64,000 bases of DNA from a plasmid. This document shows positions 15,885-59,548 of the stretch, one piece after another; positions within the stretch are counted from its first letter, which is position 1, and the number at the start of each line of letters is the position of its first letter. Where the stretch lies: sequence record NZ_CP023779.1; one strand, 5' to 3'. A model generated the notes under the pieces. It searched no databases. It had not been told where the DNA came from and saw only the letters and a program-made list of their open reading frames with translations. A program made the position numbers and the translations under genes.

Positions 15885-16183
15885 CAACGATAGCCGCAAT
15901 TTCAAAGTTAGGTCACCCTAAGATTCACAATGGTGGAAGAGGTGTGTCCTCGGATTGGTGCTCTGGGGTGGTTCTTCGGTGAGCTCTCGCTGGTTTGAGG
16001 ATTGATGGGTTACGCGGACATGAGAACTGCTCGGATCGCTTCACGCTCGCAATAGGGGCTTGCATGATCGGTTACCGTGGATGCATTGCCCGCTTGTCGG
16101 ACGGGGTGATCCGCCCGGCTGGGACCGCCGTCGACCGCCCGGCGGGCGTTGGGAACCGCTAGGTGAGCGAGAGGACTTGAGAG
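15885..16183. promoter_or_regulatory. divergent intergenic region upstream of the relaxase; candidate oriT / promoters
   Basis: MobF oriT sites usually sit next to the relaxase gene. Region has lower GC. Contains 14-mer GGGAACCGCTAGGT (16151-16164), also found at 47728. Confidence 0.3.
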
Positions 16184-19137: not shown

Positions 19138-19539
19138 TCATGCCGCGGCGGCGGGGTCGGGGCCGGGGGCTCCGGCGGGGATGTAGGGGATTTGGCCGAG
19201 GACGACGGTCTTCGTCTCGGTCGTCCATGGCACGGTTGCGTTGTGGCGGTCGGCCCAGTGCTGGGCGTCGGCGGGGTCGGCGAATGCGGCTTTGACTTCC
19301 TGCGGAGTGTCGGAGGAATCGAGGTCGTTGCTGTCGCGTTCGATGGCTTCGATGCCGACCAGGTGGACGACGGCCGGACCGCGCAGTGCTTCGGCGGCGA
19401 GTTCGGCGAGTTCGGCCAGCGCGAGGGCTGCCTCGTGCTCATCGGTGCCCGCGAGTCCTTCGACGGCGGCCTCGCGCAACTCCGCGACGGCGGCGCGAAG
19501 GTCGGCGGCGAGCTTGTGCGCGGTGCGGGTGGTGGTCAT
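19138..19539 (-). CDS. hypothetical protein
   Basis: ATG (MTTTRTAHKLA...) preceded by AGGAG. Confidence 0.45.
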   Translation of the reverse strand: MTTTRTAHKLAADLRAAVAELREAAVEGLAGTDEHEAALALAELAELAAEALRGPAVVHLVGIEAIERDSNDLDSSDTPQEVKAAFADPADAQHWADRHNATVPWTTETKTVVLGQIPYIPAGAPGPDPAAAA

Positions 19540-19568
19540 GCTTTGCTCCTGAATGGCGAGTCGGGGTG

Positions 19569-19802
19569 TCATGCGGCAGGGTCGGCCATCGCTGTGATGC
19601 GGTCGGGCCGGAATCCTGACCAGTGATCCGACCCGGCGACGACGACGGGCGCGGTCAGATAGCCAAGGCTGAGAACGAACTCGCGGGCCTCCGGCTGTTC
19701 GGTGATATCAATGGCCGTGAATTCGATGCCCGCTTTGTCGAGTGCTCGATACGTGGCCGTGCATTGCACGCAACCCGGTTTCGTGTAAACGGTGACGTTC
19801 AC
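19569..19802 (-). CDS. NrdH-like glutaredoxin (CxxC redoxin)
   Basis: 78 aa 'VNVTVYTKPGCVQCTATYRALDKAGIEFTAIDITEQPEAREFVLSLGY'. CVQC active site. GGAGGGG RBS and GTG start. Confidence 0.7.
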   Translation of the reverse strand: MNVTVYTKPGCVQCTATYRALDKAGIEFTAIDITEQPEAREFVLSLGYLTAPVVVAGSDHWSGFRPDRITAMADPAA

Positions 19803-20050
19803 AATTCCCCTCCGCTCATCATTCCCCTTTTCCTGGTTAATTCTAACAATGCTGGCAGCGTCGAACAATGAATGTCGAATAATTTCCGCAGAGTAATTCA
19901 CAAGCGGGTTGCTGCCGTAACTTCTGTAATTACGAAATGGCGTTAGAGTGCCGCTGGCGGTGTAGTTCGGTGCGCCGAAACCGGCCGAATTCTGCGGAAT
20001 TCCACCGTCTCGGAATGGTGAAACGAGTATCCGGGAGAGTGCTGCCAACG
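19803..20050. promoter_or_regulatory. AT-rich island with recurrent GTAATT/GAATTC motifs; promoter or replication-type repeat region
   Basis: GC content drops sharply. Motifs at ~19876, 19893, 19926, 19985-20006 (two GAATTC) and 20057. On the minus strand at ~20070-20090, 'TTGCGTAGTACAG' resembles the shared operator/-35 'TTGCATAGTACTACG'. Confidence 0.4.
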
Positions 20051-20616
20051 GATGTCAGTAATTCTCGGATTATTTCTGTACTACGCAATCCCGGCGGCTC
20101 GGGAAACAACTCGCTCATATCGGCGCTGTCGGCGACGGCGCAAATGGCCTGCGAGAGCGGGAGCGCGCCCCGCCGGGTGGTCGCGTAGGTGCCTTCGAGG
20201 GGGCCGAACGTTCGGCCGTGCAGGTCGATCGGCGGCTCGACGTGAAGTGTGTAGGCGGCGCTCCAGTCGATTTCGCTGCCGGTGCGGGGCACGATGAGCG
20301 GGTACCGGCGTTCGAGCGCGTCGGCCACGATGCCGTAGCCGTTCGGGCTTATTTCGCGGGTGCTGAGCACGCCGTGAATGCCGTAGATGACGGGCCCGCG
20401 GGCGTCGTTGCCTGTTCCCATCGCCTCGTATCGGCGGGCCAGCTCGCGCACGGCGGCGTCGGGCGGGCCGTCCGTCCAGCCGACCATTACCCAGTTCCGC
20501 CACTCGGCGCGGCCGCCGCGCACGATGAACCGGACACCGGGCCAGCGGTCGGCGAGTTCGGCGCGGATGCGCCGGGTCACCTCCCGCGCCCCGAGGATCC
20601 GCACCGGCGGTGTCAT
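19930..20616 (-). CDS. hypothetical protein
   Basis: ATG 20616 overlaps the upstream stop (ATGA). The 3' end runs into the AT-rich island, so the true stop is uncertain. Confidence 0.4.
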   Translation of the reverse strand: MTPPVRILGAREVTRRIRAELADRWPGVRFIVRGGRAEWRNWVMVGWTDGPPDAAVRELARRYEAMGTGNDARGPVIYGIHGVLSTREISPNGYGIVADALERRYPLIVPRTGSEIDWSAAYTLHVEPPIDLHGRTFGPLEGTYATTRRGALPLSQAICAVADSADMSELFPEPPGLRSTEIIRELLTSVGSTLPDTRFTIPRRWNSAEFGRFRRTELHRQRHSNAIS

Positions 20617-21056
20617 CGCGCGCCCCCGGCGGTTGTCGTCAGCACCGGCCCGGCGGCGGCGTCGATCTTGCTGCGGTATCCGGCGACGCTGCGGCGCGGT
20701 TCGACGGCCTCGGCGTCGTCGATGAGCTTGCGCGCCCGGTCGAGTTCTCGGGCCTTGTATGCCTTTCCGGCGGCCTTGACCAGGCGGTCCCACTCTTCGG
20801 CGCGGGCCTGCGCGGCACGCTTGCGCTCGGCCGGGCTGCGGTGCAGTACCTCGGGGTGCTGGCGCAGGTAGGCGGCCACGGCGTCGGCGACCGGGCCCAG
20901 ACCGTAGGCGGCCTGAAGGGTGCGCAAGTGTCCCTCGGTCACGTAGCGCGCGGCGTCGTCGACGCCGAAGGCGAACGGTCCGCCGTAGTACTGGGCGGCG
21001 AAGTCGTCGGCGGCGTACTCGATGAGCTTGCCCTCGACCGGGGTGAATTCGGTCAT
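20613..21056 (-). CDS. hypothetical protein
   Basis: 147 aa. AAAGGA RBS. Promoter carries the paired palindromic operators. Confidence 0.5.
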   Translation of the reverse strand: MTEFTPVEGKLIEYAADDFAAQYYGGPFAFGVDDAARYVTEGHLRTLQAAYGLGPVADAVAAYLRQHPEVLHRSPAERKRAAQARAEEWDRLVKAAGKAYKARELDRARKLIDDAEAVEPRRSVAGYRSKIDAAAGPVLTTTAGGAR

Positions 21057-21090
21057 CGGAGATACATCCTTTCGGTCGATAAGTCAGTAC

Positions 21091-21118
21091 CATAGTACTA
21101 TGTCACCATAGTACTACG
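21091..21118. promoter_or_regulatory. paired palindromic operator (CATAGTACTATG ... CATAGTACTACG)
   Basis: 12-bp self-complementary CATAGTACTATG at 21091-21102. Second copy 16 bp downstream. Same architecture in four other promoters. Confidence 0.55.
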
Positions 21119-21189
21119 AGTAGGATAAGATCACCATGGGTGATCGGTGAGAAGGGGATCGGCGCGTATCACCCTCGCGCCGAGGGGTT

Positions 21190-21624
21190 TCAGTCTTCGG
21201 CTGCGGCGCGCTTCTTGTCCGCTATCTGCTGGTGCGTTACGACGCGCACCGCTCCGGCCTTGACCGGCTGCCACGGCTGGCCGCCGTTCTTCTCGCGCTC
21301 CAGGTTTTCGACATCGGCCAAGATGATGCTTTTGAGGTAGTCGGAGAACGATCCGGTGTGGTCCTGGAGCCAACCGAATTGGTAGGCGGCTCGCACCCGG
21401 TCGGCTTCGTCGGGGTCGAAGTATGCGCCGATGCGGCCCTTGTTCATGGTGGCGCTCTTGGTGTTCTTGGCAGCTTCGCCGCTGCTGCCCTTCCTCGCTC
21501 CCGGCATGGCCGCCTTTCCCGCGCTCCCGTAGTGCTGTGGTGCCATAGTACGGGCTCGACCGGGGCGGGCCGGGCGGTGCGCCGGCGCGCGGGTCGCGGG
21601 CTGTTCGGGCGTGGTGGCGGTCAT
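21190..21624 (-). CDS. hypothetical protein
   Basis: ATG 21624 with GAAGGAG RBS. ATGA overlap with the upstream small gene. 'CCATAGTAC' half-site near the internal ATG at 21546. Confidence 0.5.
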   Translation of the reverse strand: MTATTPEQPATRAPAHRPARPGRARTMAPQHYGSAGKAAMPGARKGSSGEAAKNTKSATMNKGRIGAYFDPDEADRVRAAYQFGWLQDHTGSFSDYLKSIILADVENLEREKNGGQPWQPVKAGAVRVVTHQQIADKKRAAAED

Positions 21625-21797
21625 GACGGGGGCTCCTTCGGGGTAGCGGCGGTGCGGCTGGCGGTGGGCAGGAACGGCCCGAATGCGGCGCGGCAGCGGT
21701 CGCACAGTTCGGCATCCGCGGCGGGCCGGGGGCAGATGGCGCAGCGGTCGAGCTGCTGCGCGGTGTACGGGCGGGGTTGGGTGGCGTGGGCGGTCAC
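21621..21797 (-). CDS. small CxxC...CxxC zinc-ribbon protein
   Basis: 58 aa 'QLDRCAICPRPAADAELCDRCRAAFG'. GTG start. Weak RBS. Confidence 0.3.
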   Translation of the reverse strand: MTAHATQPRPYTAQQLDRCAICPRPAADAELCDRCRAAFGPFLPTASRTAATPKEPPS

Positions 21798-21963
21798 CTC
21801 GTGGTGTCTTTCTGGTGTGGTGGCGTGCGCGGGGGAGCTCCGTTGCTCCCCCACTCGGCACCCTGTTGTGCCTGGCCTGGTGGGCGGATGGGTCCGGACC
21901 TGGGCGCGGGGAGCGTCGGCGATCCCCACTCGGCACGTCGTCGGGCCTGGTCGGTGGAGAGGT

Positions 21964-23001
21964 CTACTGCTCGTCGCTGCGCGTGCCGCTGGCGTCGAAA
22001 TCGACGCGCTGACCGGCGCTGTTGGTGAGGCCGGTGATTTTGTTGATGGGAAGTTTGTTGTTCCATCCGGGCTCGACATCGAGAGTCACCGTGGTCTTGT
22101 TGACCCGTAGCACCGCTTCCGGCCGGGGCCGCGATGACTGCCCGGTGTGCACGTAATCGCCGCGCCGGATCATGGCGGCGGTGAACACGACGGCACCGGC
22201 GGCGCGGGCGGCATCGAGTTGCGCACGCTCGTAGGCGATTTCGTCGGCGCGCTGCGCGATGGCGGCCTCGAGCCGTGCGCGGTATTCGCCGGTCGCGGGC
22301 GGGGTGGCCTGGGTGATCGGGTGGCCGGTCTGGCCGTTGATGCCGAGATTGCGGGTGTAGCCGTCGCGGGCCCGCTCGTCGGCGCGCTGCTCGGCCTCGA
22401 GCCGGGCTATACGCCGCTGGATCACTCCGGGGCATTCCGGGGCGGTCGCGGTGAATTCGGCGGTCTGGGCGCGCTGCTCGGTCGCGGCAGCCTTCGCCCG
22501 AGCCTCGCGGGCCTGCACGCCGGTACGGTCGGCGCACTCGTGCAGCCGTTCGTGACGACGCTGCGAATGATGGCCGATCTTGATCGGTTCGCCGCCGGGC
22601 GGCAAGGACTGGTGCGCGCGATCCGCGGCGGCCTCGGCGGCTGCGGCCTGGCGGTGGTGACGCTCGGCCTTGTCCCGCAACGCATCCGCCCGGGCCCGGC
22701 GCTGGGCCGCACGGTCGGCGGCGACCTCATCGGCGGCGCGGTGGCGACGGTCGATCCGCACGCTCACGCTGTGACCGGCTTCGCGCAGCGCCTCGGCCGC
22801 ACCGGTGATCGCGAGATTGTTCGGCTGGCGGTCGCGGGAATTGCGGACAATCCAGCCGCCCAGGCTGTTCGACCACTTCCAATAGCGGCGCCCGATGCGC
22901 CGCTCGACCGTGCACATGATCTCGTAGGTGCCATCGCCGCGGCAGTCACCCTCGAGCTGGGTGCCTTCGGCGGCGGTGTGGGTGATGGTCAGTTCGGCCA
23001 T
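21964..23001 (-). CDS. DUF3560-like protein
   Basis: 'MAELTITHTAAEGTQLEGDCRGDG...WSNSLGGWIVRNSRDR...GHHSQRRHER' recalled as the DUF3560 pattern of actinobacterial ICEs (not verified). GAAGGAGGA RBS. Confidence 0.65.
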   Translation of the reverse strand: MAELTITHTAAEGTQLEGDCRGDGTYEIMCTVERRIGRRYWKWSNSLGGWIVRNSRDRQPNNLAITGAAEALREAGHSVSVRIDRRHRAADEVAADRAAQRRARADALRDKAERHHRQAAAAEAAADRAHQSLPPGGEPIKIGHHSQRRHERLHECADRTGVQAREARAKAAATEQRAQTAEFTATAPECPGVIQRRIARLEAEQRADERARDGYTRNLGINGQTGHPITQATPPATGEYRARLEAAIAQRADEIAYERAQLDAARAAGAVVFTAAMIRRGDYVHTGQSSRPRPEAVLRVNKTTVTLDVEPGWNNKLPINKITGLTNSAGQRVDFDASGTRSDEQ

Positions 23002-23020
23002 TGTCGCGGTCCTCCTTCGT

Positions 23021-23066
23021 TTGCAGTACCGTAGTACTATGGCTTCATAGTACTGTGGTACTGCAA
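23021..23066. promoter_or_regulatory. 46-bp near-perfect palindrome with two TAGTACT operator cores, in the promoter of the DUF3560-like gene
   Basis: TTGCAGTACCGTAGTACTATGG-CT-TCATAGTACTGTGGTACTGCAA. Confidence 0.55.
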
Positions 23067-23085
23067 GGTTTGCCAAGGGGCGGTT

Positions 23086-23472
23086 TCAGAATCCGGTGAC
23101 GTCGGCAGCGTCTTCGATACGCCAGACGCGCACGGACACAGTGACGGGTCTGCGGTTGCGGTCGTCGCCGAAAACCCATGCCTCGCCGTCGATTCGGCGG
23201 CCGGTGTCGACCAGTCCGGCAACCATGGGGCCGTGCAGTCCGCCCGTGTAGACCAGGGTGCCGTCCGCATTCAGGTAGTAGCTGCCCGTCCCTCGGACGA
23301 GATGGAAACCGCCGGGGAAGACGTGACCGATGCGGCGGGGCCCGGCGGGGGTGTCGAGATAGTCGCCCGAGCCCGGGCGGGTGAATTCGGCGTGCCGCGC
23401 GATTCGTTCCAACACCGGCGTGCCTCGGTCGGCTCCGGCGCTGCGGCTGGCGGTGGTCTCGGTGCGGTTCAT
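23086..23472 (-). CDS. hypothetical protein
   Basis: ATG (MNRTETTASRS...) with GAGGAGGA RBS. 128 aa. Confidence 0.55.
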   Translation of the reverse strand: MNRTETTASRSAGADRGTPVLERIARHAEFTRPGSGDYLDTPAGPRRIGHVFPGGFHLVRGTGSYYLNADGTLVYTGGLHGPMVAGLVDTGRRIDGEAWVFGDDRNRRPVTVSVRVWRIEDAADVTGF

Positions 23473-23854
23473 AGCGGATAGTCCTCCTCGTCGTCGATGT
23501 ATTCCGGTTCCTCGTCGCGGAACCACTCCGGGTCTCCGGACGGGTATCCGGCGTCGGGTTCGTCGATGAGCTCGTACTCGAGGGCCCACCGCGGATGAGT
23601 GCCCAGCACCGCGCGGGACGTGATCAGGTGCTCGCGAAACGCCTGTTCGGTGTCCCGGCACCCCCGCACGAGCTCGGGAACCACTGCGCTGGGACTGATG
23701 CCCGAATCGGGAAAGCCATGTCCGGGTTGTTGAAAGCGGCCTCGGCGGCGCGCACGGCGGCCAGCAGCTCGAGCGCGCGGGCGTGCTCCGGGGACGAGTC
23801 GGCCGGATGCGGGTCCGGGTCGGGGGACATCCACGGTGCCGGGATTGAAGGCAT
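23469..23854 (-). pseudogene. hypothetical gene interrupted by a frameshift near a G5 run (~23700-23720)
   Basis: N-terminal piece 23624..23854 (AGGAGGA RBS, 'MPSIPAPWMSPDPD...') and C-terminal piece in another frame ending at 23469 ('...EYELIDEPDAGYPSGDPEWFRDEEPEYIDDEEDYPL'). Frames overlap around 'CGGGGGTGCCGGG'. Confidence 0.35.
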
Positions 23855-23960
23855 GACGCTTCCTCCTGGGGGCGCGGGACACGTCCGCGCGCTTGCGGGG
23901 CGGGTGATGACCCGGTGCGCGCGAGGACGCGGACACCCGCGCGCACCGGGGACTGTGGGG

Positions 23961-24395
23961 TTACCGCTCGTAGCGGTCGTGGACGCGCAGCACGTCGGGG
24001 GCCGGGTACTCCAGCAGGGCAGAAAGCACCTGCCGGAATTGGCTGGCACCATTGCCCGCGAAGTTGCCGCCGTGCGCGGTGCCGGGCCGGCGGTGGATCC
24101 GGCCGTCGTCGGTGAGCTCCACCGGCTCGAGGTGGGCCTCCCGTTCGCCGTTGCGCCAAATGCCCGCGCGCCGGACCACCACGACCACCGGCGGCGCGTC
24201 GTCGCGCACGGGGTTCGCTCGCCACTCGGCGACCGGCACGATGGTGCCGTTCACTCGGGGGTCGGTGGTGTTGAGCACGCCGACCACGGTTACTCGGTCG
24301 TACTTCGCGGTGATCCCGCCGAGTGTGAAATCGGCGTCGGCTTCCGCGGAGCGGTAGACGCTGAGGGTCAGGCCCTTGATGTCGCTGGTGGTCAC
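23961..24395 (-). CDS. hypothetical protein
   Basis: GTG start after 'GAGGCGGAG'. The longer ORF-track start falls inside the operator palindrome and is probably not used. Confidence 0.5.
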   Translation of the reverse strand: MTTSDIKGLTLSVYRSAEADADFTLGGITAKYDRVTVVGVLNTTDPRVNGTIVPVAEWRANPVRDDAPPVVVVVRRAGIWRNGEREAHLEPVELTDDGRIHRRPGTAHGGNFAGNGASQFRQVLSALLEYPAPDVLRVHDRYER

Positions 24396-24422
24396 TTTCT
24401 CCGCCTCTCTTCGGTATAACGC

Positions 24423-24450
24423 CATAGTACTATGGTGTCGTAGTACTATG
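24423..24450. promoter_or_regulatory. paired palindromic operator (CATAGTACTATG / CGTAGTACTATG)
   Basis: CATAGTACTATG at 24423-24434. CGTAGTACTATG at 24439-24450, followed by CAA (-35-like TTGCAT on the minus strand). Confidence 0.55.
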
Positions 24451-24482
24451 CAATGTTGGGCGGTGTGATCGGCGCCACAGAG

Positions 24483-24794
24483 CTATCGCGCACGGATCCG
24501 GTTTGTTCGGCGCTGCTGCTCGGCGTACCGGTCGATCTGGTCACGGTCGACATCGTGAATCGCCAGCTCGCGAATTGCGGCGGCGCGAGCGCTGGACGGC
24601 AGGGCCGCGATGCGCCACAGCTCGGCGACCCATTCCCGTTCGGCCTCGAAATGGCGCTCGGAGTCGGTGACCAGGCAGTACCGGGGGCGGTGTTCGTGGT
24701 AGTCGCGGCATTCCAGGCTCGCGGCTTCCTCGGGCGTCACGGGCGACAGTCGGGCGTATCGCTGCGGGCAGCGGGTCGTGGGATCCAGGGACAT
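24483..24794 (-). CDS. hypothetical protein
   Basis: ATG with GAGGAG RBS. 103 aa. Confidence 0.5.
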   Translation of the reverse strand: MSLDPTTRCPQRYARLSPVTPEEAASLECRDYHEHRPRYCLVTDSERHFEAEREWVAELWRIAALPSSARAAAIRELAIHDVDRDQIDRYAEQQRRTNRIRAR

Positions 24795-24841
24795 CGGGGC
24801 ATCTCCTCTCGGGGGCGGGCGGGGATCGGCTCGAGCTCCGG

Positions 24842-24884
24842 GGGAGGCGCGCCGGGTAGCTAGCGACTATCCGGCGCGCCTCCC
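24842..24884. repeat. hairpin element, 14-bp GC stem around conserved core CCGGGTAGCTAGCGACTATCCGG (copy 1)
   Basis: GGGAGGCGCGCCGG-gtagctagcgactat-CCGGCGCGCCTCCC. The core recurs at 27640-27672 with different stem arms. Confidence 0.55.
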
Positions 24885-24896
24885 GCTCTTGCTCGG

Positions 24897-25718
24897 TCAG
24901 CCCTTGTACTTGCGCATTTCCTCGGCGAGCACCCACAACGCGCGGTTGAGCTTCACGTTGCCGTCGATGCCGTTGACCGGCCGGGTCCGGGTGCGCTGGC
25001 CCTTGGCGGTGGTGCCACGCACTCCGCCCTTGGTCACCCGCTCCTGTACCCGGTTGAACACGCTCCACATGTCGTCTCCGGCGTCCTCGACCCGGCGCGG
25101 GGTGAGCAGCTGGCGGGCGGCGATCGGGGCCTTCTCTGGTTCGTCGTAGCGCAGCGCAAGGGCCGCCTTGGCGAAGGCGTGCTGTTCGCCCGTCTCCAGC
25201 GGCAGGGCCTTCATGTCGTCGCGTTCGGCCTCGACGAGCTCGAACTGATCGAGCACGGTGTACGCGCCTTCGATCACGTCGTCGACCACGTTGCCGGAGT
25301 GGCGAACTCGGATATCGTCGATCGTTTCGCCGCACACCATGCCGTTGGTGCACACGAATCGGAACATGCCCGCGAGCATCTGATACGAGCTGGTGCCGTC
25401 GTGCGAGTTCAACAGGATGATCTCGTTCGTCTCGTCGGCGCGGATCGCCGTTGCGTGACGCAGCCGGACCATGTGCTTGCAGAACTCGCGGCGGCTTTCG
25501 TCGCGCACCCGGCTTTGCGCCACCGCGAAGGGCTGGAATCCCTCGCGCTGCAAGCCGCGCAGCACGTCGATGGTCGGGATGTAGGTGTAGCGCGCGCTGC
25601 GGTCCGCGTGCGCCTCGGTCGCGAAGATGCTCGGCGCGACGCGACGGATCGCGTCGTCGGTCAGCGGGTCGTCCGAGCGAATCGAAACGGCGTTGCGGAT
25701 CTTCGATGCCAATGGCAT
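24897..25718 (-). CDS. DUF932-like protein (phage/plasmid-like, TIGR03299-like)
   Basis: 'IILLNSHDGTSSYQMLAGMFRFVCTNGMV' recalled as the DUF932 pattern (not verified). AAGGGAG RBS. Confidence 0.65.
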   Translation of the reverse strand: MPLASKIRNAVSIRSDDPLTDDAIRRVAPSIFATEAHADRSARYTYIPTIDVLRGLQREGFQPFAVAQSRVRDESRREFCKHMVRLRHATAIRADETNEIILLNSHDGTSSYQMLAGMFRFVCTNGMVCGETIDDIRVRHSGNVVDDVIEGAYTVLDQFELVEAERDDMKALPLETGEQHAFAKAALALRYDEPEKAPIAARQLLTPRRVEDAGDDMWSVFNRVQERVTKGGVRGTTAKGQRTRTRPVNGIDGNVKLNRALWVLAEEMRKYKG

Positions 25719-25800
25719 TGTGGCGACTCCCTTTTCGGTGTGGTTCCGGCGGTCTCTCCGTCGGTAACTCCATAGTACTATGGAGCCGTAGTACTATGCA
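25719..25800. promoter_or_regulatory. ~80-bp promoter/5'UTR module with paired operators, near-identical to 27995-28075
   Basis: 'CCCTTTTCGGTGTGGTTCCGGCGGTCTCTCCGTCGGTAACTCCATAGTACTATGGAGCCGTAGTACTATGCAA'. Confidence 0.6.
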
Positions 25801-25898
25801 ACTGGTCGGATTGTGATGGCTGCCACAGCAGCCGAGGCCGCGGCGCTCAGCCGGGAAACGGGTGGCCCCGGCGCTCGGGGCTGTGGGTCGTCGGCGGG

Positions 25899-26450
25899 CT
25901 ATTCTCGCCTGCCACCGGTGCCGGGCTGGTGGGCTTCCGGGTCGAACAGGGCGGGTTGGATCGGCGGTGTCGCTGCCGAAGGCTGTGCGGGCCTGCTACG
26001 GCTGCGAGCGGGGGCGCGTAAGGCCGGGGTGGTGCCGAACAGTTCGAGTTCGATCGGCGCGGGCGGTGTCTCGGATTCGGTGAGCCAGAATCGCCGCTTT
26101 CCGTGCGCATAGGCGCGGACATCGAGGCTGTACTCGAGGGTCGTCACCACAGGGTCGGCAAGCTCGGTGCGCTCGTAGCGCAGCGTCCAGGCGCGGCCGC
26201 GCGCGATGTCGTCGAGCTCCTCGCCGAGATGGGCACGGCAAACGCAAATCTCCCACGATTCGCGCGTCCCCCACGGGGTGTAGTCGAGCCGGATCCGGTG
26301 GGCTGCACGGACCTTGCACGCGAAACCGGTTCCGCCGGTGCCGGTTTCGGGGTCGGGTGGGGTCGTCCAGACAAAGCGCTCGCAGGTGGGTACCTGCCAG
26401 TTGCTCGTGATCGACCGGCGAGAGATGATCCGCGGCGCGTCGGTGGTCAC
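25899..26450 (-). CDS. hypothetical protein
   Basis: GTG start overlapping the upstream stop (GTGA). 184 aa. Confidence 0.5.
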   Translation of the reverse strand: MTTDAPRIISRRSITSNWQVPTCERFVWTTPPDPETGTGGTGFACKVRAAHRIRLDYTPWGTRESWEICVCRAHLGEELDDIARGRAWTLRYERTELADPVVTTLEYSLDVRAYAHGKRRFWLTESETPPAPIELELFGTTPALRAPARSRSRPAQPSAATPPIQPALFDPEAHQPGTGGRRE

Positions 26451-26857
26451 GAGTAGAGTCCGGCGGCTTCGCGCCGGTCGGCGCAGGTGCCGCAATAGCC
26501 GTCGTATCCCTCGCCGTCGTCCAGGAGTTCGGCGCAATCCGCGGTGGCGCAGTATTCGGGCCACTGCGCGGCTTCGAGGGCGTTTACTGCGCCGTCGCCG
26601 GGCTGGTAGGTCGTCTCGATCGGGTTGCCGTGCTCGTCGGCCGCCTCGGGCAACGCCCATACCTTGCGGAAGCTCGCCGATGTCAGTTTCACCGGCACCG
26701 GCAGGTCACAGACGTTGGTCAGCTCGACCGATCCGCCGGGCGTCGGATACATCTCCTGCCCGTCGTCGGTGTGCAGGAACTTGCGCACGTGGGCCTCGCT
26801 GTCGGCCCGGATTACGAGGGTGACGACGGCGTACACGTCAACGGTGTAGGTGTTCAT
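26447..26857 (-). CDS. hypothetical protein
   Basis: ATG (MNTYTVDVYAVV...). 136 aa. Confidence 0.5.
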   Translation of the reverse strand: MNTYTVDVYAVVTLVIRADSEAHVRKFLHTDDGQEMYPTPGGSVELTNVCDLPVPVKLTSASFRKVWALPEAADEHGNPIETTYQPGDGAVNALEAAQWPEYCATADCAELLDDGEGYDGYCGTCADRREAAGLYS

Positions 26858-27006
26858 TGGGCGCACCTTTCGGGCTGCTGAATAGGCGCACAGAGCCCCG
26901 AACCGGACTCGCCGGCCCCGGGGGGTGTGCGGGGGAGTGGTGGGCCCCGATTCGGGGCCGGGTGGCGGGCCGCGCCGGGTGGCTCGGCCCGCCGATTCGG
27001 GCGAAC

Positions 27007-27597
27007 CTATGCGGTGTTCGTCCCGCGCTGAATCGCCCATGCCTGCGGCAGGTGTCCGGCGCGGGCGAGCGTGTCGAGCCGCTCGGCCACTCCGGCGGCC
27101 TGCGCGTACAGCTCCGCGCGGTCGTCGACATACAGGCCGGTAGCGGCCGCGTCCTTCTCGTTGTCCGGGTCCGCGTAGTACTCCGCGGCGCGCTGCTCGG
27201 CCTTGCGCAGATAGCTACGGAACTCGGCGAGCAGCGCGTCCGGCTCGGCGGCCGCCGCTAGCTGGTCCTCGGCCTTGATCAGGGTGTAGCCGAACCAGTC
27301 GGCCAACATGTCGAGCACATCGCGCCCGGTCGGCAACGGCGTGGTCTCGGCCTGCTCACGCTCGGCCGTAGCCGCCTGGGTCTTGCACGTCTCGCAGTGG
27401 TTCGGGCATCCGCCGAACGTGCAGTCGAGCCCCTCGAGCCCGTCGAGCGGGTATCCGTCGACGCTGGTCGAATCCAGATGCCAGCGGCCCTCGTCGAAGT
27501 AGAAATAGATCTTGCCGTGGTCTTCGTAGCGATGCCCTTCGGCGTCCTGTTCGGCGGCTGCGGCGGCGTCGGCCTGGGTGTTTTCGGTGGTTGTCAT
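27007..27597 (-). CDS. hypothetical protein with Cys cluster (CTFGGCPNHCETC)
   Basis: ATG (MTTTENTQ...). 196 aa. Confidence 0.5.
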   Translation of the reverse strand: MTTTENTQADAAAAAEQDAEGHRYEDHGKIYFYFDEGRWHLDSTSVDGYPLDGLEGLDCTFGGCPNHCETCKTQAATAEREQAETTPLPTGRDVLDMLADWFGYTLIKAEDQLAAAAEPDALLAEFRSYLRKAEQRAAEYYADPDNEKDAAATGLYVDDRAELYAQAAGVAERLDTLARAGHLPQAWAIQRGTNTA

Positions 27598-27639
27598 GTC
27601 GGTGCCTCTCACCTAGAGTTCTGGGGGAGAGGCACCGGG

Positions 27640-27672
27640 TAGCTAGCGACTACCCGGTGCCTATCTCGTTGA
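27640..27672. repeat. hairpin element copy 2 (core CCGGGTAGCTAGCGACTACCCGG)
   Basis: AGGCACCGGGTA-gctagcgac-TACCCGGTGCCT. Lies between two minus-strand genes, like copy 1. Confidence 0.55.
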
Positions 27673-27727
27673 CGGGCTTACGAATTCCGGTCGGTGGGTG
27701 GTGCGCGCGCCGTGGGCTGCTGCGCCG

Positions 27728-27994
27728 TCACGCGAGGATGGTTGCGGCTGGGCGGCCGTGCTGGTCGACGCCGAGGATCATCACCATGTCGGCGGCACTG
27801 ATTACGCCGTTCTCGAATCGGTTGATGTGGAACGGAATTCGCGACGAACCGATCGGTGCGTACGCCACGGCCTCGCGGGCGGCGGTGAGCACCTGGGCCA
27901 CCTCGACGGCCGGGATGGCGTTCTCGACGCTGACCGGGCAGTGGTAGCCCATCGCGGCGGCGGTGTCGGTGACGTCGATCAGAGCGAAGCTCAT
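27728..27994 (-). CDS. hypothetical small protein
   Basis: ATG (MSFALIDVTDTAAAMGYHCPV...) with AAAGGGA RBS. 88 aa. Confidence 0.5.
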   Translation of the reverse strand: MSFALIDVTDTAAAMGYHCPVSVENAIPAVEVAQVLTAAREAVAYAPIGSSRIPFHINRFENGVISAADMVMILGVDQHGRPAATILA

Positions 27995-28075
27995 CGAGTT
28001 TCCCTTTCGGTGTGGTTCCGGCGGTCTCTCCGTCGGTAACTTCATAGTACTATGATACCGTAGTACTATGCAAAC
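27995..28075. promoter_or_regulatory. second copy of the ~80-bp promoter/5'UTR module with paired operators
   Basis: CATAGTACTATG at 28043-28054. CGTAGTACTATG at 28059-28070. Confidence 0.6.
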
Positions 28076-28099
28076 TCGGTGATGTGATCTGATACACAT

Positions 28100-28450
28100 C
28101 TACCCAGGTCAGCGGCGGTTTCCTTCCTCCTCCAGGCTGCTATGGTGACCGGCTCGCAAACGGTCGATCCGCACCCGACCGCCGGCGGGGAAGCGGTCGC
28201 GTCGGGACACTTCTCGCGAGGCGGGGAATCCCGGTGCCTCCCGGGACAGAGGGCCGAAAACACAAGCGCGACCGTGGTTTACGTGGCAAGCCTTCCCGCT
28301 GAGGGAAGGCGCGGCAGCCGGGGAACGGGCGCGGGCGGATACCCGGCCCGCGGGTCCTATCGGCCAACCCGCGACCCGTGCGCGCGGCCGAGTGCACATC
28401 GCTGGATGCTCATATCGCAATAGCGGCGCGGCTGAGGCTGCTGCGGGACA
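28100..28450 (-). other. ORF-poor, hairpin-rich ~350 bp segment; candidate non-coding RNA or leader
   Basis: No ORF with an RBS. Multiple perfect stems (e.g. GCCTTCCC-gctga-GGGAAGGC). Preceded on the minus strand by the 17-bp element at 28455-28471. Confidence 0.2.
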
Positions 28451-30912: not shown

Positions 30913-31130
30913 GTGTCGATAATACCAGCTAGACCCTTTTCGAGACACTCAATGTCGATCAAATTAGCAGACTGATAGGTCTGGTTCTAGCCTCCGATAA
31001 ACGACCGTTATCGGCGGTGAGCACACCCTAAGTACGAAAAGTGTCAAACCTGGCCGTTGAGTGTCCGAAACCCGATCGTTTTCCGACACTGGCCGTTGAT
31101 CCGGCACACAGGAGACGGTGTGCGCCCGCG
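30913..31130. promoter_or_regulatory. candidate res/recombination site and promoter for the serine recombinase
   Basis: Lower GC. Multiple GTGTC/GACAC inverted motifs ('GTGTCGATAATACC...CGAGACAC', 'AGTGTCAAACC', 'GAGTGTCCGAAA', 'CCGACACTGG'). Direct repeat 'CTGGCCGTTGA' x2. Confidence 0.35.
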
Positions 31131-33399: not shown

Positions 33400-33828
33400 T
33401 CAGCAGGGACCGATGGTTTTGGCTCCAGCGCGGCGGCGTCGTCTGGTGTCAATGTCGGCGACGCGGGCCTTGCCGGTGGCCGCGTCCTTCTCCAAGGTTA
33501 GTAGGTTGATCACCGAGGCGTAGAGCTTCACCTGCTCTTCCAGCTCGGCGCAGTGCACCAGCAGTTCGGCGTGTTTTTCCTTCAGCTTGTCGTAGTCGCT
33601 GGGCTCGGCCGCGGCTGCGTCGGCCTGGGCGGCTTTGGCGCGGGCTTGGAACTGTTCTTTGAGGTCGGTGTGCTGGTGGGTGAGTCTCCAGCGTTCGAGA
33701 CCTGCTTCGACCGCGAGTTGGGAAACGCTGAGCCGGCCGGTGGAACGCAGCGGCGTGCCGTCGAGCAGCCGGTCCATCGCGGCCAAGAGTTTCTTGCGGA
33801 TGGGGTCGGTCTCGGTCGTGGTGGTCAC
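33400..33828 (-). CDS. small coiled-coil protein coupled to the recombinase trio
   Basis: GTG start overlapping the upstream stop (GTGA). 142 aa. Confidence 0.5.
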   Translation of the reverse strand: MTTTTETDPIRKKLLAAMDRLLDGTPLRSTGRLSVSQLAVEAGLERWRLTHQHTDLKEQFQARAKAAQADAAAAEPSDYDKLKEKHAELLVHCAELEEQVKLYASVINLLTLEKDAATGKARVADIDTRRRRRAGAKTIGPC

Positions 33829-46472: not shown

Positions 46473-47711
46473 ATGATCGAAACCGAAGATCGCTACATCG
46501 GCCGCCAGGTCGCCACACTCCGCAACCGCCGAGGAATGACTCAGCAGGTCCTTGCCGACCTCCTGGGTATCAGTCGATCGCAACTCGCGAAATACGAATC
46601 CGGCCTGCAACCACTCGACTCTCGCAAGATGCTGTATGCCATCGCGGAGGCGTTGCAAGTCTCGATCGCTGATCTGACGGGACACGCGGAGGACAAGCAC
46701 CTGTCGTCCGCTTCGGTCTTCCACGCTGCTGTTCCGCGCATCGAAGCCGCGCTGCTGTCGGCGGGACATGTGGACGATGTTCGGGCGCCGGCCACGGTGG
46801 CTGTGCTCGCTCAGACCGCCGATCTCGCACTCGATCTGCGGATGGCGGGTGACCTGTCGAAACTTGGTTCGCTGCTGCCTGACCTGATCACCGATTGCTA
46901 CCGGCGGACAGTTGACGGACCGGAACCCGACCGAAACGTCGCGTGGTCGGCACTGGCTCGAGCAGCGTTCGCGACGGCTCTAGCCAGCAAAGGACTGGGC
47001 TACACGTCGCTCGCTTGGAACGCCGCACGAGTAACCGCCGAAGCAGCAGGCATCATCGGCGACAAAGTCGCGCTGGCGGCTTCTGAATTCGTCTCATCAC
47101 AAGTACTGCTCGCGATGCCCGGTAGCCTTCCTGCGGCACTGGGGCGGATCCAGGCCGCCACCGACCGGATGCAGACCGACCTGAGCGGCACACCGGAGGG
47201 CCTCCAACTGTATGGAATGTTGAACTTGCAGGGCGCTCTCACTTCGGCGGCATTGGGTCGCGACTCGGCCGACCATCTCGCCGAGGCACGGGAAACAGCA
47301 TCTCGCACAGGGGAATCCGACGAATCTGCTTTCCGTCTGGATTTTGGCCCATCCAATGCCGCCATCTGGGGGATGTCGGTCGCGCTCGAAGAAGGCCGAG
47401 GCGGCGCGGCCGTTGCACTCGCCACTGAAGTCGATCCGACTGCCATCGGCACCGCTGAACGGCAGGCGCGTTTCTTCATCGAGCAGGGTCGCGGACATGC
47501 GATGGAGGGCCAATATGCTGAAGCAATGGCGGCTCTCCTGCGTGCGGAGACCATAGCTCCGCAGTACGTTCGCTCACGTGTTGTTGTTCGTGAACTCGTT
47601 GGCTACATGCTGCGGAAGGCTCGCCGCGATCTCACCGCCGGGGAACTCGGCAAGCTGGCCCAGCGCGTAGGGGCCATTCCCGCTCCGGCCGGTTTGTCGC
47701 ACCTGTCCTAA
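46473..47711 (+). CDS. XRE-family HTH transcriptional regulator with long helical (TPR-like) C-terminal domain
   Basis: 'MTQQVLADLLGISRSQLAKYESG' HTH_XRE. GAAGGGGA RBS. 412 aa. Confidence 0.75.
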   Translation: MIETEDRYIGRQVATLRNRRGMTQQVLADLLGISRSQLAKYESGLQPLDSRKMLYAIAEALQVSIADLTGHAEDKHLSSASVFHAAVPRIEAALLSAGHVDDVRAPATVAVLAQTADLALDLRMAGDLSKLGSLLPDLITDCYRRTVDGPEPDRNVAWSALARAAFATALASKGLGYTSLAWNAARVTAEAAGIIGDKVALAASEFVSSQVLLAMPGSLPAALGRIQAATDRMQTDLSGTPEGLQLYGMLNLQGALTSAALGRDSADHLAEARETASRTGESDESAFRLDFGPSNAAIWGMSVALEEGRGGAAVALATEVDPTAIGTAERQARFFIEQGRGHAMEGQYAEAMAALLRAETIAPQYVRSRVVVRELVGYMLRKARRDLTAGELGKLAQRVGAIPAPAGLSHLS

Positions 47712-58210: not shown

Positions 58211-58645
58211 TCATCCGAGTATGTCCGAGTCAGGGTCCGCAGGCAGCCCCCGGCTGCGCCGCAGGCTCTGCAAGATGCCGGTGATCGCCGCAATGTCCTC
58301 GTCATCGAGATCGGCCATCCGCCACGCCGCCGCCTGGATGTTCTTCTCGCGGCGAAGCTGCTCGTACATCTCCCGCACATCCTGATCAGGGCGGGGACGC
58401 TCGGTGTAGAGGGCTTTGGGATCGCCACCGTGGTACGCGCGTTCCGCGCTGCCGGGCTCCCACCCCAGCGCGGTATCCAGACGCTGAAACGTCGACGGCC
58501 GCAGCGGATGATCGGCCACGTTGCGCTCGATCTTGGACACGGTCACGAAACTCGGGCCACCAGCGGCGGAGACGTCGGACTGGGTCATCTTCAGCTGCTG
58601 ACGACGACCTTTGACGATCACGCCGAATCGCTCGTGGTTGTCCAT
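58211..58645 (-). CDS. XRE-family repressor (ImmR-like)
   Basis: 'LKMTQSDVSAAGGPSFVTVSKIERN' HTH_XRE. Paired with the ImmA-like gene. Confidence 0.75.
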   Translation of the reverse strand: MDNHERFGVIVKGRRQQLKMTQSDVSAAGGPSFVTVSKIERNVADHPLRPSTFQRLDTALGWEPGSAERAYHGGDPKALYTERPRPDQDVREMYEQLRREKNIQAAAWRMADLDDEDIAAITGILQSLRRSRGLPADPDSDILG

Positions 58646-59095: not shown

Positions 59096-59548
59096 TTACG
59101 CCGGCGAGCCCGGAGGCCGCTGGCGCGCGCGCTCGTAGGCGGCGCGCACCTCGTCCACGGAGAGGCCGAGGCCCTCGGCCAGGCCCGTGGCGCTCTCGCG
59201 CGACAGCGCTACCTGGCCGAGCTCCAGGCGGTGAACGGTCGGCGCGCTCAGACCGGCCGCGGTGGCGAGCTCTTGCTGAGTCATGCCCCGCAGCACCCGC
59301 CAATCGCCGAGGTAGCGCTCGGTGACAGGGATCGGCACGAGCACGTCCATCGGAACGCCGAGCGCTTGTGCGACGCGCCAGAGCAGTTTGACCGAGGGGG
59401 ATTTCTCCTCGCGTTCCCACTGTTCGACTGCGCTCTTGCTGACGCCCGCGACGCGGGCCAGTTCGCCGGTGTGGTGCAGGGTGGGGTGGTTCTCCCGCAC
59501 GTGCCGCAGCGCTGCGCCCTTGAATCCGCGCGTGACCTTCCTGGTCAT
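59096..59548 (-). CDS. XRE-family regulator with two tandem HTH domains
   Basis: 'TGELARVAGVSKSAVEQWEREEK' and 'MTQQELATAAGLSAPTVHRLELGQ'. Confidence 0.7.
   Translation of the reverse strand: MTRKVTRGFKGAALRHVRENHPTLHHTGELARVAGVSKSAVEQWEREEKSPSVKLLWRVAQALGVPMDVLVPIPVTERYLGDWRVLRGMTQQELATAAGLSAPTVHRLELGQVALSRESATGLAEGLGLSVDEVRAAYERARQRPPGSPA

What the first reader, a model, noticed from the sequence alone, without database searches (positions are those of the whole stretch)
21081..28075. A self-complementary 12-bp operator (CATAGTACTATG) paired with CGTAGTACTATG in at least five promoters of the small-gene block
Exact or near-exact pairs occur at 21091-21118, 23021-23066, 24423-24450, 25771-25798 and 28043-28070. 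Each pair is 16 bp centre-to-centre. Each lies immediately upstream of a minus-strand gene start (20613..21056, DUF3560-like gene, 23961..24395, DUF932-like gene, 27728..27994). Read on the minus strand, each region gives 'TTGCATAGTACTACGG-N-CATAGTACTATG'. The first site overlaps a -35-like TTGCAT and the second provides a TACTAT -10-like hexamer about 18 nt later. This is the classic arrangement for a single dimeric repressor silencing a regulon of transfer, establishment or anti-defence genes. No annotated regulator is assigned. The ImmR-like XRE repressor (58211..58645), the two-HTH XRE (59096..59548) and the XRE/TPR protein (46473..47711) are candidates.
Basis: seen in the sequence. Interest (0 to 1): 0.7.

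Follow-up and report, generated by a model that had tools for sequence, protein, structure and literature searches.

The report
Shared repressor sites in plasmid promoters
Five promoters in the probable early-entry gene block of a Nocardia conjugative plasmid carry the same pair of 12-bp palindromes, most likely binding sites for a small ribbon-helix-helix repressor encoded in that block; this is a clean but conventional plasmid control circuit.

Summary
Ten sites form five pairs, always 16 bp centre to centre, against zero expected by chance. Each pair sits just upstream of a minus-strand gene. The window is most of a ~71-kb Nocardia terpenica conjugative plasmid. The block lies upstream of the TrwC relaxase gene and holds DUF932, DUF3560, glutaredoxin and small acidic proteins. 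In 596 Gb of genomes the double site occurs almost only in Nocardia plasmid-like contigs. There it is part of a conserved promoter cassette: CRP-like box, TTG, operator 1 over the -35, operator 2 supplying TACTAT, then a conserved leader. Two are absent from a complete N. farcinica plasmid that carries the same operators. The two-HTH and 58211-type XRE proteins have homologues on a complete Nocardia plasmid with no such sites. The best candidate is a basic ribbon-helix-helix protein of the pCXC100 ParB family (21190-21624), encoded inside the regulon. It is present in all nine motif-bearing elements examined. Two relatives lie next to parA; one has 9-bp-phased ACTATSG iterons, the other related CTATCG repeats. 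Binding, repression and start sites remain untested. New member of a known kind.

The parts
28043..28070 (-). Operator pair of promoter P5. Minus strand reads TTG-CATAGTACTACG-GTAT-CATAGTACTATG. It drives the 88-aa gene and the genes after it.
25771..25798 (-). Operator pair of promoter P4, which drives the DUF932 operon.
24423..24450 (-). Operator pair of promoter P3, which drives gene 23961-24395.
23021..23066 (-). Promoter P2, which drives DUF3560 followed by the RHH gene. The operator pair is 23030-23057, inside a 46-bp extended palindrome. GTAC-centred boxes fall at -8, 0, +16 and +24. The scan finds TTGGCA-18-TACTAT.
21091..21118 (-). Operator pair of promoter P1, which drives gene 20613-21056 and probably the glutaredoxin gene beyond it. 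There is an extra GTAC box at +24 and no clear -35.
21190..21624 (-). Candidate repressor: a basic ribbon-helix-helix protein of the pCXC100 ParB C-terminal family. It is 144 aa from the ATG at 21624. The NCBI start is 21546 and a third SD-preceded ATG is at 21507. The beta-strand NKGRIGAY is encoded at 21421-21444. It is the second gene of the P2 operon.
21528..21555 (-). Degenerate operator pair (GCCCGTACTATG-GCAC-CACAGCACTACG) in the 5' part of the RHH gene. An equivalent is present at seven other RHH genes examined (L002, L003, L004, L006, L008, L010, L016); L011 has a single non-coding site instead. Its role is unresolved.
21964..23001 (-). DUF3560 gene, the first gene of the P2 operon.
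24897..25718 (-). DUF932 gene, the first gene of the P4 operon. Gene 24483-24794 follows it.
27728..27994 (-). 88-aa acidic protein, the first gene after P5. Its homologue is a first gene after an operator pair in seven of the other elements. Acidic proteins follow at 27007-27597 and 26447-26857.
23961..24395 (-). First gene of the P3 operon, with a GTG start. The L016 gene at the syntenic position, 76% identical in DNA, is annotated DUF8317.
19138..21056 (-). P1 operon: gene 20613-21056, a glutaredoxin-domain gene (ORF 19569-20048; true start not fixed) and gene 19138-19572.
24464..24479 (.). TGTGA-N6-TCACA-like (CRP/FNR-type) box, 13 nt upstream of operator 1 of P3. Equivalent boxes lie at 25812-25827 (P4) and 28083-28098 (P5).
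25746..25764 (-). Conserved leader element CCGACGGAGAGACCGCCGG, which starts 7 nt after operator 2 of P4. The twin for P5 is at 28018-28036.

Best explanation
The palindrome pairs are operators of a plasmid-encoded repressor. This repressor keeps five promoters of the gene block upstream of the relaxase gene switched off in an established host. In three promoters, operator 1 overlaps a TTGCAT -35 and operator 2 contains the TACTAT -10. A conserved A lies 6 nt after that hexamer and is the likely start site. Bound protein would therefore exclude RNA polymerase. The most likely repressor is the 144-aa basic ribbon-helix-helix protein at 21190-21624, an orphan relative of type Ib centromere-binding ParB proteins. 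One dimer would read each compact palindrome through its beta-ribbon, centred on GTAC. The gene lies inside the regulon, as the second gene of the P2 operon, which gives negative feedback. When the plasmid enters a naive recipient there is no repressor. The promoters would fire in a burst and then shut down as the protein accumulates. That is the overshoot described for R388. Shown here: the motif, its position, its conservation, its co-occurrence with the RHH gene, and similar half-sites as iterons at the parA operons of two relatives. Inferred: binding, repression, start sites, timing, and that this block is the leading region.
For: The double site is restricted to Nocardia plasmid-like contigs across 596 Gb. 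In a complete 65-kb N. farcinica plasmid all five operator pairs, plus the degenerate pair at its RHH gene, lie in one 5-kb block. Across the tabulated promoters with full flanks, TTG directly precedes operator 1 in most, and a TA follows operator 2 at the spacing expected for a start site. The RHH protein matches Pfam PF18064 (E 1.4e-4, 22.4 bits, below the 27-bit cutoff). It matches pCXC100 ParB 3NO7 at E 0.017. All seven database homologues carry PF18064, and some are named ParB family protein. The AlphaFold model has the two helices at pLDDT 75-88, and 3NO7 is the top Foldseek hit. It is the only clearly basic small protein in the block. It is also the only block protein with a homologue in every motif-bearing element. 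Its beta-strand NKGRIG-Y is invariant across the seven aligned Nocardia-type homologues. In a metagenomic parA-RHH operon with the beta-strand NKGRIGPY, four ACTATSG iterons lie 9 bp apart just upstream of parA. In Gordonia p3 the homologue follows parA, whose upstream region carries CTATCG and TAG-NN-CTA repeats. Where the upstream region was read, the RHH gene lies downstream of an operator-bearing promoter. A complete Nocardia plasmid that has the XRE-type candidates but no RHH has no sites at all. R388 gives the precedent: ArdK and the segregation protein StbA repress PardC, Porf7, Porf12 and Porf14, with overshoot after transfer (PMC3937220).
Against: No binding, transcription or start-site data exist. 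The family assignment rests on weak scores: Pfam below cutoff in my scan, PDB E 0.017, Foldseek E about 1. A 16-bp spacing puts two dimers on opposite faces of the helix, which is unusual for cooperative RHH binding (7-11 bp in omega, MetJ, Arc and pCXC100 ParB). The Gordonia homologue has a different beta-strand (RRVRVGPY) but similar iterons, so there is no clean protein-DNA covariation. Promoters P1 and P2 do not share the -35/-10 register of P3-P5. oriT was not located, so 'leading region' is inferred from gene content, uniform orientation towards the relaxase gene, and analogy.
Confidence: 0.6

Rival explanations
1. The sites are repressor operators, but the binding protein is something else. 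It could be the two-HTH XRE (59096-59548), another plasmid regulator, or a Nocardia chromosomal factor.
For: The two-HTH protein has homologues (36-38%) in the operator-bearing N. farcinica plasmid. No experiment links the RHH protein to the sites. Only 32 kb of the 175-kb NBC_01503 plasmid was examined.
Against: The closest two-HTH homologues (55%) lie on Nocardia plasmids that did not match the cassette query. NZ_CP031419, read in full, has both the two-HTH and the 58211-type XRE but no TAGTACTA at all. XRE 58211 and XRE/TPR are absent from NZ_CP086601. The two-HTH gene has its own conserved 30-bp palindrome beside it. Half-sites only 6 bp apart are too close for a classical HTH dimer (general knowledge). 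No other protein in the block looks DNA-binding.
Confidence: 0.15
2. The palindromes are mainly a dispersed centromere. The ParB-family RHH protein loads there to segregate the plasmid with ParA (50477-51292), and promoter occlusion is secondary.
For: The protein family is defined by a centromere-binding protein. Relatives sit in parA operons with iterons. No partner gene for the window's ParA was identified; only a long low-complexity ORF follows it. Omega, KorB and StbA combine both roles.
Against: Every pair sits in fixed register with a -35/-10 and a start codon. This points to selection for transcriptional control. There are no contiguous iteron arrays and no sites near parA, which has its own GC-rich palindromes. 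pSM19035 needs at least four contiguous sub-sites for ParA activation.
Confidence: 0.1
3. The repeated sequence is a positive promoter element. It would be recognised by an activator or a dedicated sigma factor rather than by a repressor.
For: The sites coincide with the -35 and -10 themselves. One related plasmid has a sigma-70 family gene close to its sites.
Against: The same perfect palindrome sits at both the -35 and the -10, which is not how sigma factors read promoters. At P2 the pair is shifted 16 bp relative to the promoter hexamers. No sigma gene appeared among the window ORFs scanned against Pfam.
Confidence: 0.05
4. The palindromes act as single-stranded DNA structures on the entering strand. 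They would be Frpo-like promoters or priming signals rather than protein operators on duplex DNA.
For: The block looks like a leading region, and leading-region genes elsewhere use ssDNA promoters. Operators 1 and 2 can pair into a 10-12-bp hairpin, and P2 folds at -17.4 kcal/mol.
Against: Folding 150-nt stretches gives only separate local hairpins. None forms a fold-back that would present a duplex -35/-10 at the right spacing. Pairing operator 1 with operator 2 would destroy the promoter geometry. Variation at the inner positions (ACG with CAT, ATG with CGT) breaks complementarity between the two sites instead of preserving it.
Confidence: 0.03

Closest known systems
ArdK/StbA-controlled maintenance regulon of IncW plasmid R388
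   Same: Several promoters (PardC, Porf7, Porf12, Porf14, Pssb) share operators and are repressed by plasmid proteins in negative feedback, with a transcriptional burst after transfer. StbA is a segregation protein that also acts as a repressor (PMC3937220).
   Different: ArdK and StbA are helix-turn-helix proteins in a proteobacterial plasmid, and their operators are unrelated. Here the candidate is a ribbon-helix-helix protein in an actinobacterial plasmid, and nothing has been tested.
ParB of Leifsonia plasmid pCXC100 (PDB 3NO7, Pfam PF18064)
   Same: It has a homologous C-terminal RHH domain behind a disordered N-terminal half, on an actinobacterial plasmid.
   Different: pCXC100 ParB binds nine contiguous, non-palindromic 9-bp direct repeats upstream of parA and serves partition. 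The window protein is not next to parA. Its presumed sites are palindrome pairs in five separate promoters.
Omega (ParB) of pSM19035
   Same: It is an RHH dimer that reads short sub-sites in direct or inverted orientation at several promoters, and it is both a global repressor and a centromere-binding protein (the target genes are from my own knowledge).
   Different: Omega binds arrays of contiguous 7-bp heptads and needs four or more for ParA activation. It controls copy number, partition and toxin-antitoxin genes in Firmicutes, not a leading-region block.
CUP-controlled regulon of IncN plasmid pKM101, and KorA/KorB of RK2 (from my own knowledge, not checked here)
   Same: A repeated promoter-operator cassette sits in front of leading-region or backbone operons and is controlled by autoregulated plasmid repressors. 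KorA's operator is also a 12-bp palindrome.
   Different: The protein families and hosts differ. CUP repeats are several hundred bp long, whereas this cassette is about 100 bp.
MetJ met-box arrays (from my own knowledge)
   Same: An RHH dimer binds each 8-bp palindromic box, and boxes follow in 8-bp register. Extra GTAC boxes at -8 and +24, and half-site-plus-palindrome variants, fit an 8-bp register here too.
   Different: Here the box between the two consensus boxes is not conserved. MetJ is a chromosomal, corepressor-dependent regulator.

Membership tests
Ribbon-helix-helix DNA-binding proteins, pCXC100 ParB C-terminal family (PF18064) | Sequence match to the family model or to the solved member | tested here: inconclusive
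   My Pfam scan gives E 1.4e-4 and 22.4 bits, below the 27-bit cutoff. PDB 3NO7 matches at E 0.017 over the two helices. All seven database homologues carry a precomputed PF18064 hit, and NCBI names some ParB family protein.
Ribbon-helix-helix DNA-binding proteins, pCXC100 ParB C-terminal family (PF18064) | Strand-helix-helix fold that forms an intertwined dimer | tested here: inconclusive
   The monomer AlphaFold model has helices 71-88 and 93-112 at pLDDT 75-88, preceded by the conserved NKGRIGAY stretch. The strand is not formed in a monomer. Foldseek's top hit is 3NO7, but at E about 1. The dimer could not be modelled.
Type Ib plasmid partition system (ParA plus a small RHH centromere-binding protein plus iterons) | The RHH gene lies directly downstream of parA | tested here: not met
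   In the window parA is at 50477-51292, about 29 kb from the RHH gene. The feature is met in the relatives L012 (Gordonia) and L015 (metagenome).
Type Ib plasmid partition system (ParA plus a small RHH centromere-binding protein plus iterons) | An array of contiguous iterons upstream of parA | tested here: not met
   There are no TAGTACTA or phased ACTATSG arrays near the window's parA. Different GC-rich palindromes are found there. L015 has four 9-bp-phased iterons.
Autoregulated global plasmid repressor regulon (ArdK/StbA, KorA/KorB, omega type) | One operator shared by several promoters of backbone operons | tested here: met
   There are five promoters in the window, and 31 were tabulated across eight Nocardia elements, with further promoters in a ninth.
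Autoregulated global plasmid repressor regulon (ArdK/StbA, KorA/KorB, omega type) | The operator overlaps core promoter elements | tested here: inconclusive
   TTGCAT-18-TACTAT lies within the pair at P3-P5, and TTGGCA-18-TACTAT is found at P2. Start sites are not mapped.
Autoregulated global plasmid repressor regulon (ArdK/StbA, KorA/KorB, omega type) | The regulator gene is itself under operator control | tested here: met
   This holds if the RHH protein is the regulator. Where the upstream region was read, its gene lies downstream of an operator-bearing promoter. Eight of the nine elements also carry a degenerate pair at the gene's 5' end.
Autoregulated global plasmid repressor regulon (ArdK/StbA, KorA/KorB, omega type) | Demonstrated binding and repression | not testable with these tools
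   This needs EMSA or footprinting and reporter assays.
Frpo-type single-stranded DNA promoters | A long fold-back that presents a duplex -35/-10 on the transferred strand | tested here: not met
   Only separate short hairpins form. There is no Rfam match.
CRP/FNR-dependent promoters (for the upstream box) | A TGTGA-N6-TCACA site at an activating position | tested here: inconclusive
   A box matching at least 8 of 10 positions occurs in 19 of 31 cassettes. In 17 of these it ends 12-13 nt before operator 1; in two it ends 23-24 nt before. The window has three hits, all at P3-P5. The motif agrees with CRP consensus sequences. The estimated centre, about -54, matches neither -41.5 nor -61.5.

The most novel reading that the evidence does not exclude
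An orphan copy of a type Ib centromere-binding protein has been recruited as the master switch of the early-entry genes of actinobacterial conjugative plasmids. It would act through a portable ~100-bp cassette made of a host CRP box, a dual operator and a 5' leader hairpin, which has spread in front of unrelated establishment or anti-defence genes. The same sites might also serve as a dispersed centromere. The operator pair inside the repressor's own coding sequence might act as a roadblock that tunes feedback.
Probability: 0.2. Interest if true: 0.6.

Novelty: new member of a known kind. Interest (0 to 1): 0.4.

Why it matters
The regulation of establishment and anti-defence genes in actinobacterial conjugative plasmids is little characterised. 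Nocardia plasmids can carry resistance genes; the related N. farcinica plasmid has sul1 and qacEdelta1. This regulon gives a precise, testable handle: a 12-bp operator, five promoters, and one candidate repressor. It also marks out a set of uncharacterised genes (DUF932, DUF3560, several small acidic proteins) that are probably expressed in a burst on entry and are worth screening for anti-defence activity. If the RHH assignment holds, it is another case of a partition-type DNA-binding protein being reused as a global plasmid repressor.

Tried and rejected
- **Close relatives:** No near-identical plasmid or phage was found for 20500-28200.
- **Cassette in PLSDB:** A blastn search with the 64-nt P4 cassette finds only NZ_CP086601. 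That search would miss bare operator pairs.
- **Protein annotation:** Pfam and NCBIfam give nothing for most block proteins.
- **The 88-aa first gene as repressor:** It is acidic (pI 5.0). A profile search of the PDB finds only chance hits. The single-sequence AlphaFold model is poor (pLDDT 59) and shows a beta-alpha-beta fold with no HTH or RHH. The homologue search returned only the protein itself, so no alignment could be used. Rejected as a candidate.
- **Distant RHH homologues:** Those in Paenarthrobacter (next to glutaredoxin and ssb) and Rhodococcus plasmids showed no clear shared palindrome.
- **Fold search:** Foldseek on the RHH model was not significant.
- **Leader hairpin:** 91% of cells pair and two pairs show compensatory changes, with only 4 of 500 shuffles reaching the observed values. 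However, the commonest variant has an A-C mismatch, and the folding energy does not differ from shuffles (z -0.5 to -1). I treat it as inconclusive.
- **Frpo-like structure:** Rejected.
- **Rfam:** Only a spurious microRNA hit on the P2 palindrome.
- **L001:** The one non-Nocardia match, a 45%-GC contig binned as Janthinobacterium, has no RHH homologue. About four chance matches are expected, so I treat it as chance.
- **Literature:** A search for ATAGTACTAT found nothing relevant.
- **oriT:** Not located.

Full report
**1. Observation**

The degenerate 12-mer YRTAGTACTAYG occurs at 9 distinct positions, where shuffles give none. CATAGTACTATG with up to two mismatches occurs at 10 positions against 0.18 expected. 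These form five pairs: 21091-21118, 23030-23057, 24423-24450, 25771-25798 and 28043-28070. Every pair is exactly 16 bp centre to centre.

Allowing three mismatches adds four matches, at 20984, 21528, 27174 and 57742. This is close to the 3.7 expected by chance. 20984 and 27174 lie in coding sequence at Tyr-Tyr codons, 21528 is the RHH-gene site discussed in section 5, and 57742 was not examined.

Read on the minus strand, each pair lies 27-52 nt upstream of a start codon with a Shine-Dalgarno sequence.

Three details in the finding need correction:
- The interval 23021-23066 is a 46-bp extended palindrome that contains the pair 23030-23057.
- TTGCAT is present at only three of the five promoters.
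- At 23030 the promoter scan finds TTGGCA-18-TACTAT, with the -10 in the first site.

**2. Context**

The window is about 69% G+C. Two of its proteins are 100% identical to Nocardia terpenica proteins, one of them labelled as plasmid-borne, and both lie on a 71,380-bp contig.

The window encodes the following:

| Feature | Coordinates |
|---|---|
| NlpC/P60 protein | 45-1418 |
| Coupling protein | 4065-5855 |
| DUF4913 | 5852-6265 |
| SSB | 8715-9395 |
| TrwC relaxase, 2138 aa | 9489-15905 |
| Resolvase | 29776-30948 |
| ParA | 50477-51292 |
| Three XRE-type regulators | 46332-47711, 58211-58645, 59096-59548 |

The operators lie in a run of minus-strand genes at 19138-28099, all transcribed towards the relaxase gene. 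These genes are DUF932, DUF3560, a glutaredoxin-domain protein and several small, mostly acidic proteins of unknown function. The gene content and the uniform orientation resemble the leading regions of other conjugative plasmids. I did not locate oriT, so calling this the leading region is an inference.

**3. Distribution**

The double site TAGTACTAYG-N4-CRTAGTACTA was scanned against one genome for each of 185,579 species (596 Gb). It matched eight stretches. Seven are in Nocardia: N. africana, N. veterana, N. salmonicida, N. higoensis and Nocardia sp. NPDC058499, on contigs of 6-87 kb. The eighth is a 45%-GC contig with no related genes. I treat it as chance, since about four chance matches are expected.

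The loci share little DNA with the window apart from the promoter cassettes, but they carry homologous genes in shuffled order.

- A complete N. farcinica plasmid (NZ_CP086601, 64.9 kb) has five operator pairs, plus the degenerate pair at its RHH gene, all within one 5-kb block.
- N. rhamnosiphila has a block syntenic with the window at 70-80% identity, with pairs in the equivalent places.

**4. The cassette**

I aligned 31 promoters from eight elements. The conserved layout is as follows:
- An upstream TGTGA-N6-TCACA-like box. It matches at least 8 of 10 positions in 19 of the 31 promoters. In 17 of these it ends 12-13 nt before operator 1; in the other two it ends 23-24 nt before.
- TTG directly abutting operator 1, so that TTGCAT forms a -35.
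- A 4-nt variable spacer.
- Operator 2, which contains TACTAT 18 nt after the -35.
- A conserved TA about 5-6 nt further on, which is the likely start site.
- In about half the cassettes, the leader CCGACGGAGAGACCGCCGG.

In the window the CRP-like pattern has three hits, all at P3-P5. It agrees with published CRP motifs.

P4 and P5 share 72 nt at 93% identity.

The leader hairpin shows two pairs with compensatory changes, and only 4 of 500 shuffles reach the observed values. Its energy does not differ from shuffled sequence, so I leave it as inconclusive.

**5. Which protein binds**

The block contains one protein with a DNA-binding signature. The gene at 21190-21624 matches the C-terminal ribbon-helix-helix domain of the pCXC100 centromere-binding protein ParB:
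- Pfam PF18064 at E 1.4e-4, which is below the cutoff.
- PDB 3NO7 at E 0.017.
- All seven database homologues carry the domain, and several are named ParB family protein.
- The AlphaFold model has a disordered N-terminal half and two helices at pLDDT 75-88. 3NO7 is the top Foldseek hit, though not a significant one.

Several further points single this protein out:
- It is the only clearly basic small protein in the block.
- It is the only block protein with a homologue in every motif-bearing element.
- Its predicted DNA-reading strand, NKGRIG-Y, is invariant across the seven aligned Nocardia-type homologues.

Two relatives sit in ordinary parA-RHH operons:
- In a metagenomic contig, four ACTATSG repeats lie exactly 9 bp apart just upstream of parA. 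This is the same half-site as ACTATG in the operator, and the same 9-bp phasing that pCXC100 ParB uses.
- In Gordonia p3, the parA upstream region is full of CTATCG and TAG-NN-CTA motifs.

So the family appears to read this half-site. In Nocardia the half-sites are arranged as palindromes inside promoters.

Where the upstream region was read, the RHH gene lies downstream of an operator-bearing promoter. In the window it is the second gene of the P2 operon. That arrangement gives negative feedback.

A compact palindrome, with half-sites only 6 bp apart, suits a beta-ribbon inserted into one major groove. It does not suit a helix-turn-helix dimer. This last point is inference from general structural knowledge.

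**6.

- XRE 58211-58645 and the XRE/TPR protein have no homologue in NZ_CP086601, which carries the same operators.
- The two-HTH protein has 36-38% homologues there. Its family is found on 398 plasmids across many genera, and its closest relatives (55%) are on other Nocardia plasmids.
- One of those, NZ_CP031419 (96.7 kb, complete), has the two-HTH gene and a 58211-like XRE next to its secretion genes. It has no RHH homologue and not one TAGTACTA site.
- The two-HTH gene also has its own conserved 30-bp palindrome beside it.

The operator therefore tracks the RHH gene, not the XRE genes.

**7. Other readings**

- **Single-stranded promoter.** Folding shows only separate local hairpins. The two operators do not covary so as to preserve pairing with each other.
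- **Centromere role.** This cannot be excluded, because the protein family is a partition family and no partner gene for the window's ParA was identified. However, the sites are in strict register with promoters, they are not contiguous arrays, and parA has different palindromes upstream.
- **Sigma or activator element.** This is unlikely, because the same palindrome sits at both hexamers, and at P2 the pair is shifted by 16 bp.

**8. Unresolved points**

A degenerate operator pair (21528-21555) lies in the 5' part of the RHH gene, with an equivalent at seven other RHH genes examined. It encodes RTMAPQ(H/Y)YG in a long reading frame with a good ribosome-binding site. It contains the annotated start codon. 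It also precedes a third in-frame ATG that has its own ribosome-binding site.

Differences between elements fall on the 4-nt spacer. In the NBC_01503 plasmid the equivalent site is clearly non-coding. This favours a DNA-level role, perhaps a roadblock.

The 16-bp spacing puts two dimers on opposite faces of the helix. Extra GTAC boxes at -8 and +24, and half-site-plus-palindrome variants, hint at an 8-bp register like MetJ.

**9. Comparison and verdict**

The circuit works like the R388 ArdK/StbA regulon. There, several maintenance promoters are held down by autoregulated plasmid repressors and overshoot after transfer. It also resembles omega of pSM19035, an RHH protein that is both a partition protein and a global repressor.

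The protein is related to pCXC100 ParB, but it fails two defining tests of a type Ib partition system in this window: it is not next to parA, and there is no iteron array.

I found no paper that describes this operator.

The finding is real and tidy. Its mechanism is conventional. The main new point is the identity of the likely repressor, and that still needs a binding experiment.

Noticed in passing
window 24464-24479, 25812-25827, 28083-28098: TGTGA-N6-TCACA (CRP/FNR-type) boxes lie 12-13 nt upstream of operator 1 at P3-P5. They are the only three such hits in the window. A box matching at least 8 of 10 positions occurs in 19 of 31 related cassettes, at this distance in 17 of them. This suggests input from host CRP or from a second plasmid regulator.
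   Followed up: partly
window 25746-25764 and 28018-28036 (minus strand): A conserved leader, CCGACGGAGAGACCGCCGG, lies close to the predicted 5' end of the mRNA. Two pairs show compensatory changes across elements, but the folding energy is no better than shuffled sequence. It may be a 5' stabilising hairpin.
   Followed up: partly
window 24830-24877 and 27613-27660 (minus strand): A 48-nt repeat (83% identical) forms a very stable GC-rich stem-loop just after the first gene of the P4 and P5 operons. It is also conserved in N. rhamnosiphila (L016 3513-3550). It could be an intra-operon attenuator or a 3' stabiliser.
   Followed up: partly
window 21528-21555: A degenerate operator pair lies inside the 5' part of the RHH gene, with an equivalent at seven other RHH genes examined. 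It overlaps the annotated start codon and encodes RTMAPQHYG in the long frame. Whether the constraint is on the DNA or on the peptide is unresolved.
   Followed up: partly
window 59777-59806; L009 23826-23857: A 30-bp palindrome, CCTTCCCC..GTTGCA..GGGGAAGG, lies next to the two-HTH regulator gene. It is conserved between the N. terpenica and N. farcinica plasmids. It may be that regulator's own operator or a hairpin.
   Followed up: partly
window about 51255-51285 (upstream of parA 50477-51154): GC-rich palindromes (GCGCGGTACGCGCGTACCGCGC) precede parA. A long low-complexity ORF follows parA, and no recognisable small ParB was seen. The partition partner and centromere of this plasmid are unclear.
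   Followed up: no
L015 819-852; L012 4000-4300: Two canonical parA-RHH operons have iterons upstream of parA. The metagenomic one has four ACTATSG repeats in 9-bp phase. Gordonia hongkongensis p3 has CTATCG and TAG-NN-CTA repeats. These share the half-site of the Nocardia operator.
   Followed up: partly
window 33825-39315 (minus strand), plus 39284-40426: Three consecutive large ORFs (708, 631 and 491 aa) lie here. Only the last matches a tyrosine-recombinase domain. A DUF1173 gene sits beside them. This may be a recombinase-in-trio type element.
   Followed up: no
L001 1210-1233: This is the only non-Nocardia match to the double site. It is a perfect 24-nt palindrome in a 45%-GC, 3.8-kb contig binned as Janthinobacterium, which also has several other TAGTACTA copies. 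No RHH homologue was found, so it is probably chance in AT-rich DNA.
   Followed up: partly
L013 6005-7285 (Paenarthrobacter ureafaciens plasmid pA): A distant RHH homologue closes a glutaredoxin-ssb-RHH gene cluster about 2.4 kb from the MobC/relaxase genes. This suggests the family is linked to early-entry genes in other actinobacterial plasmids as well.
   Followed up: partly
window 20984-20995 and 27174-27185: Operator-like 12-mers lie inside coding sequence. They arise from Tyr-Tyr codons (TACTAC, in AQYYG and EYYA) and are not paired sites. They would be false positives in motif scans.
   Followed up: yes
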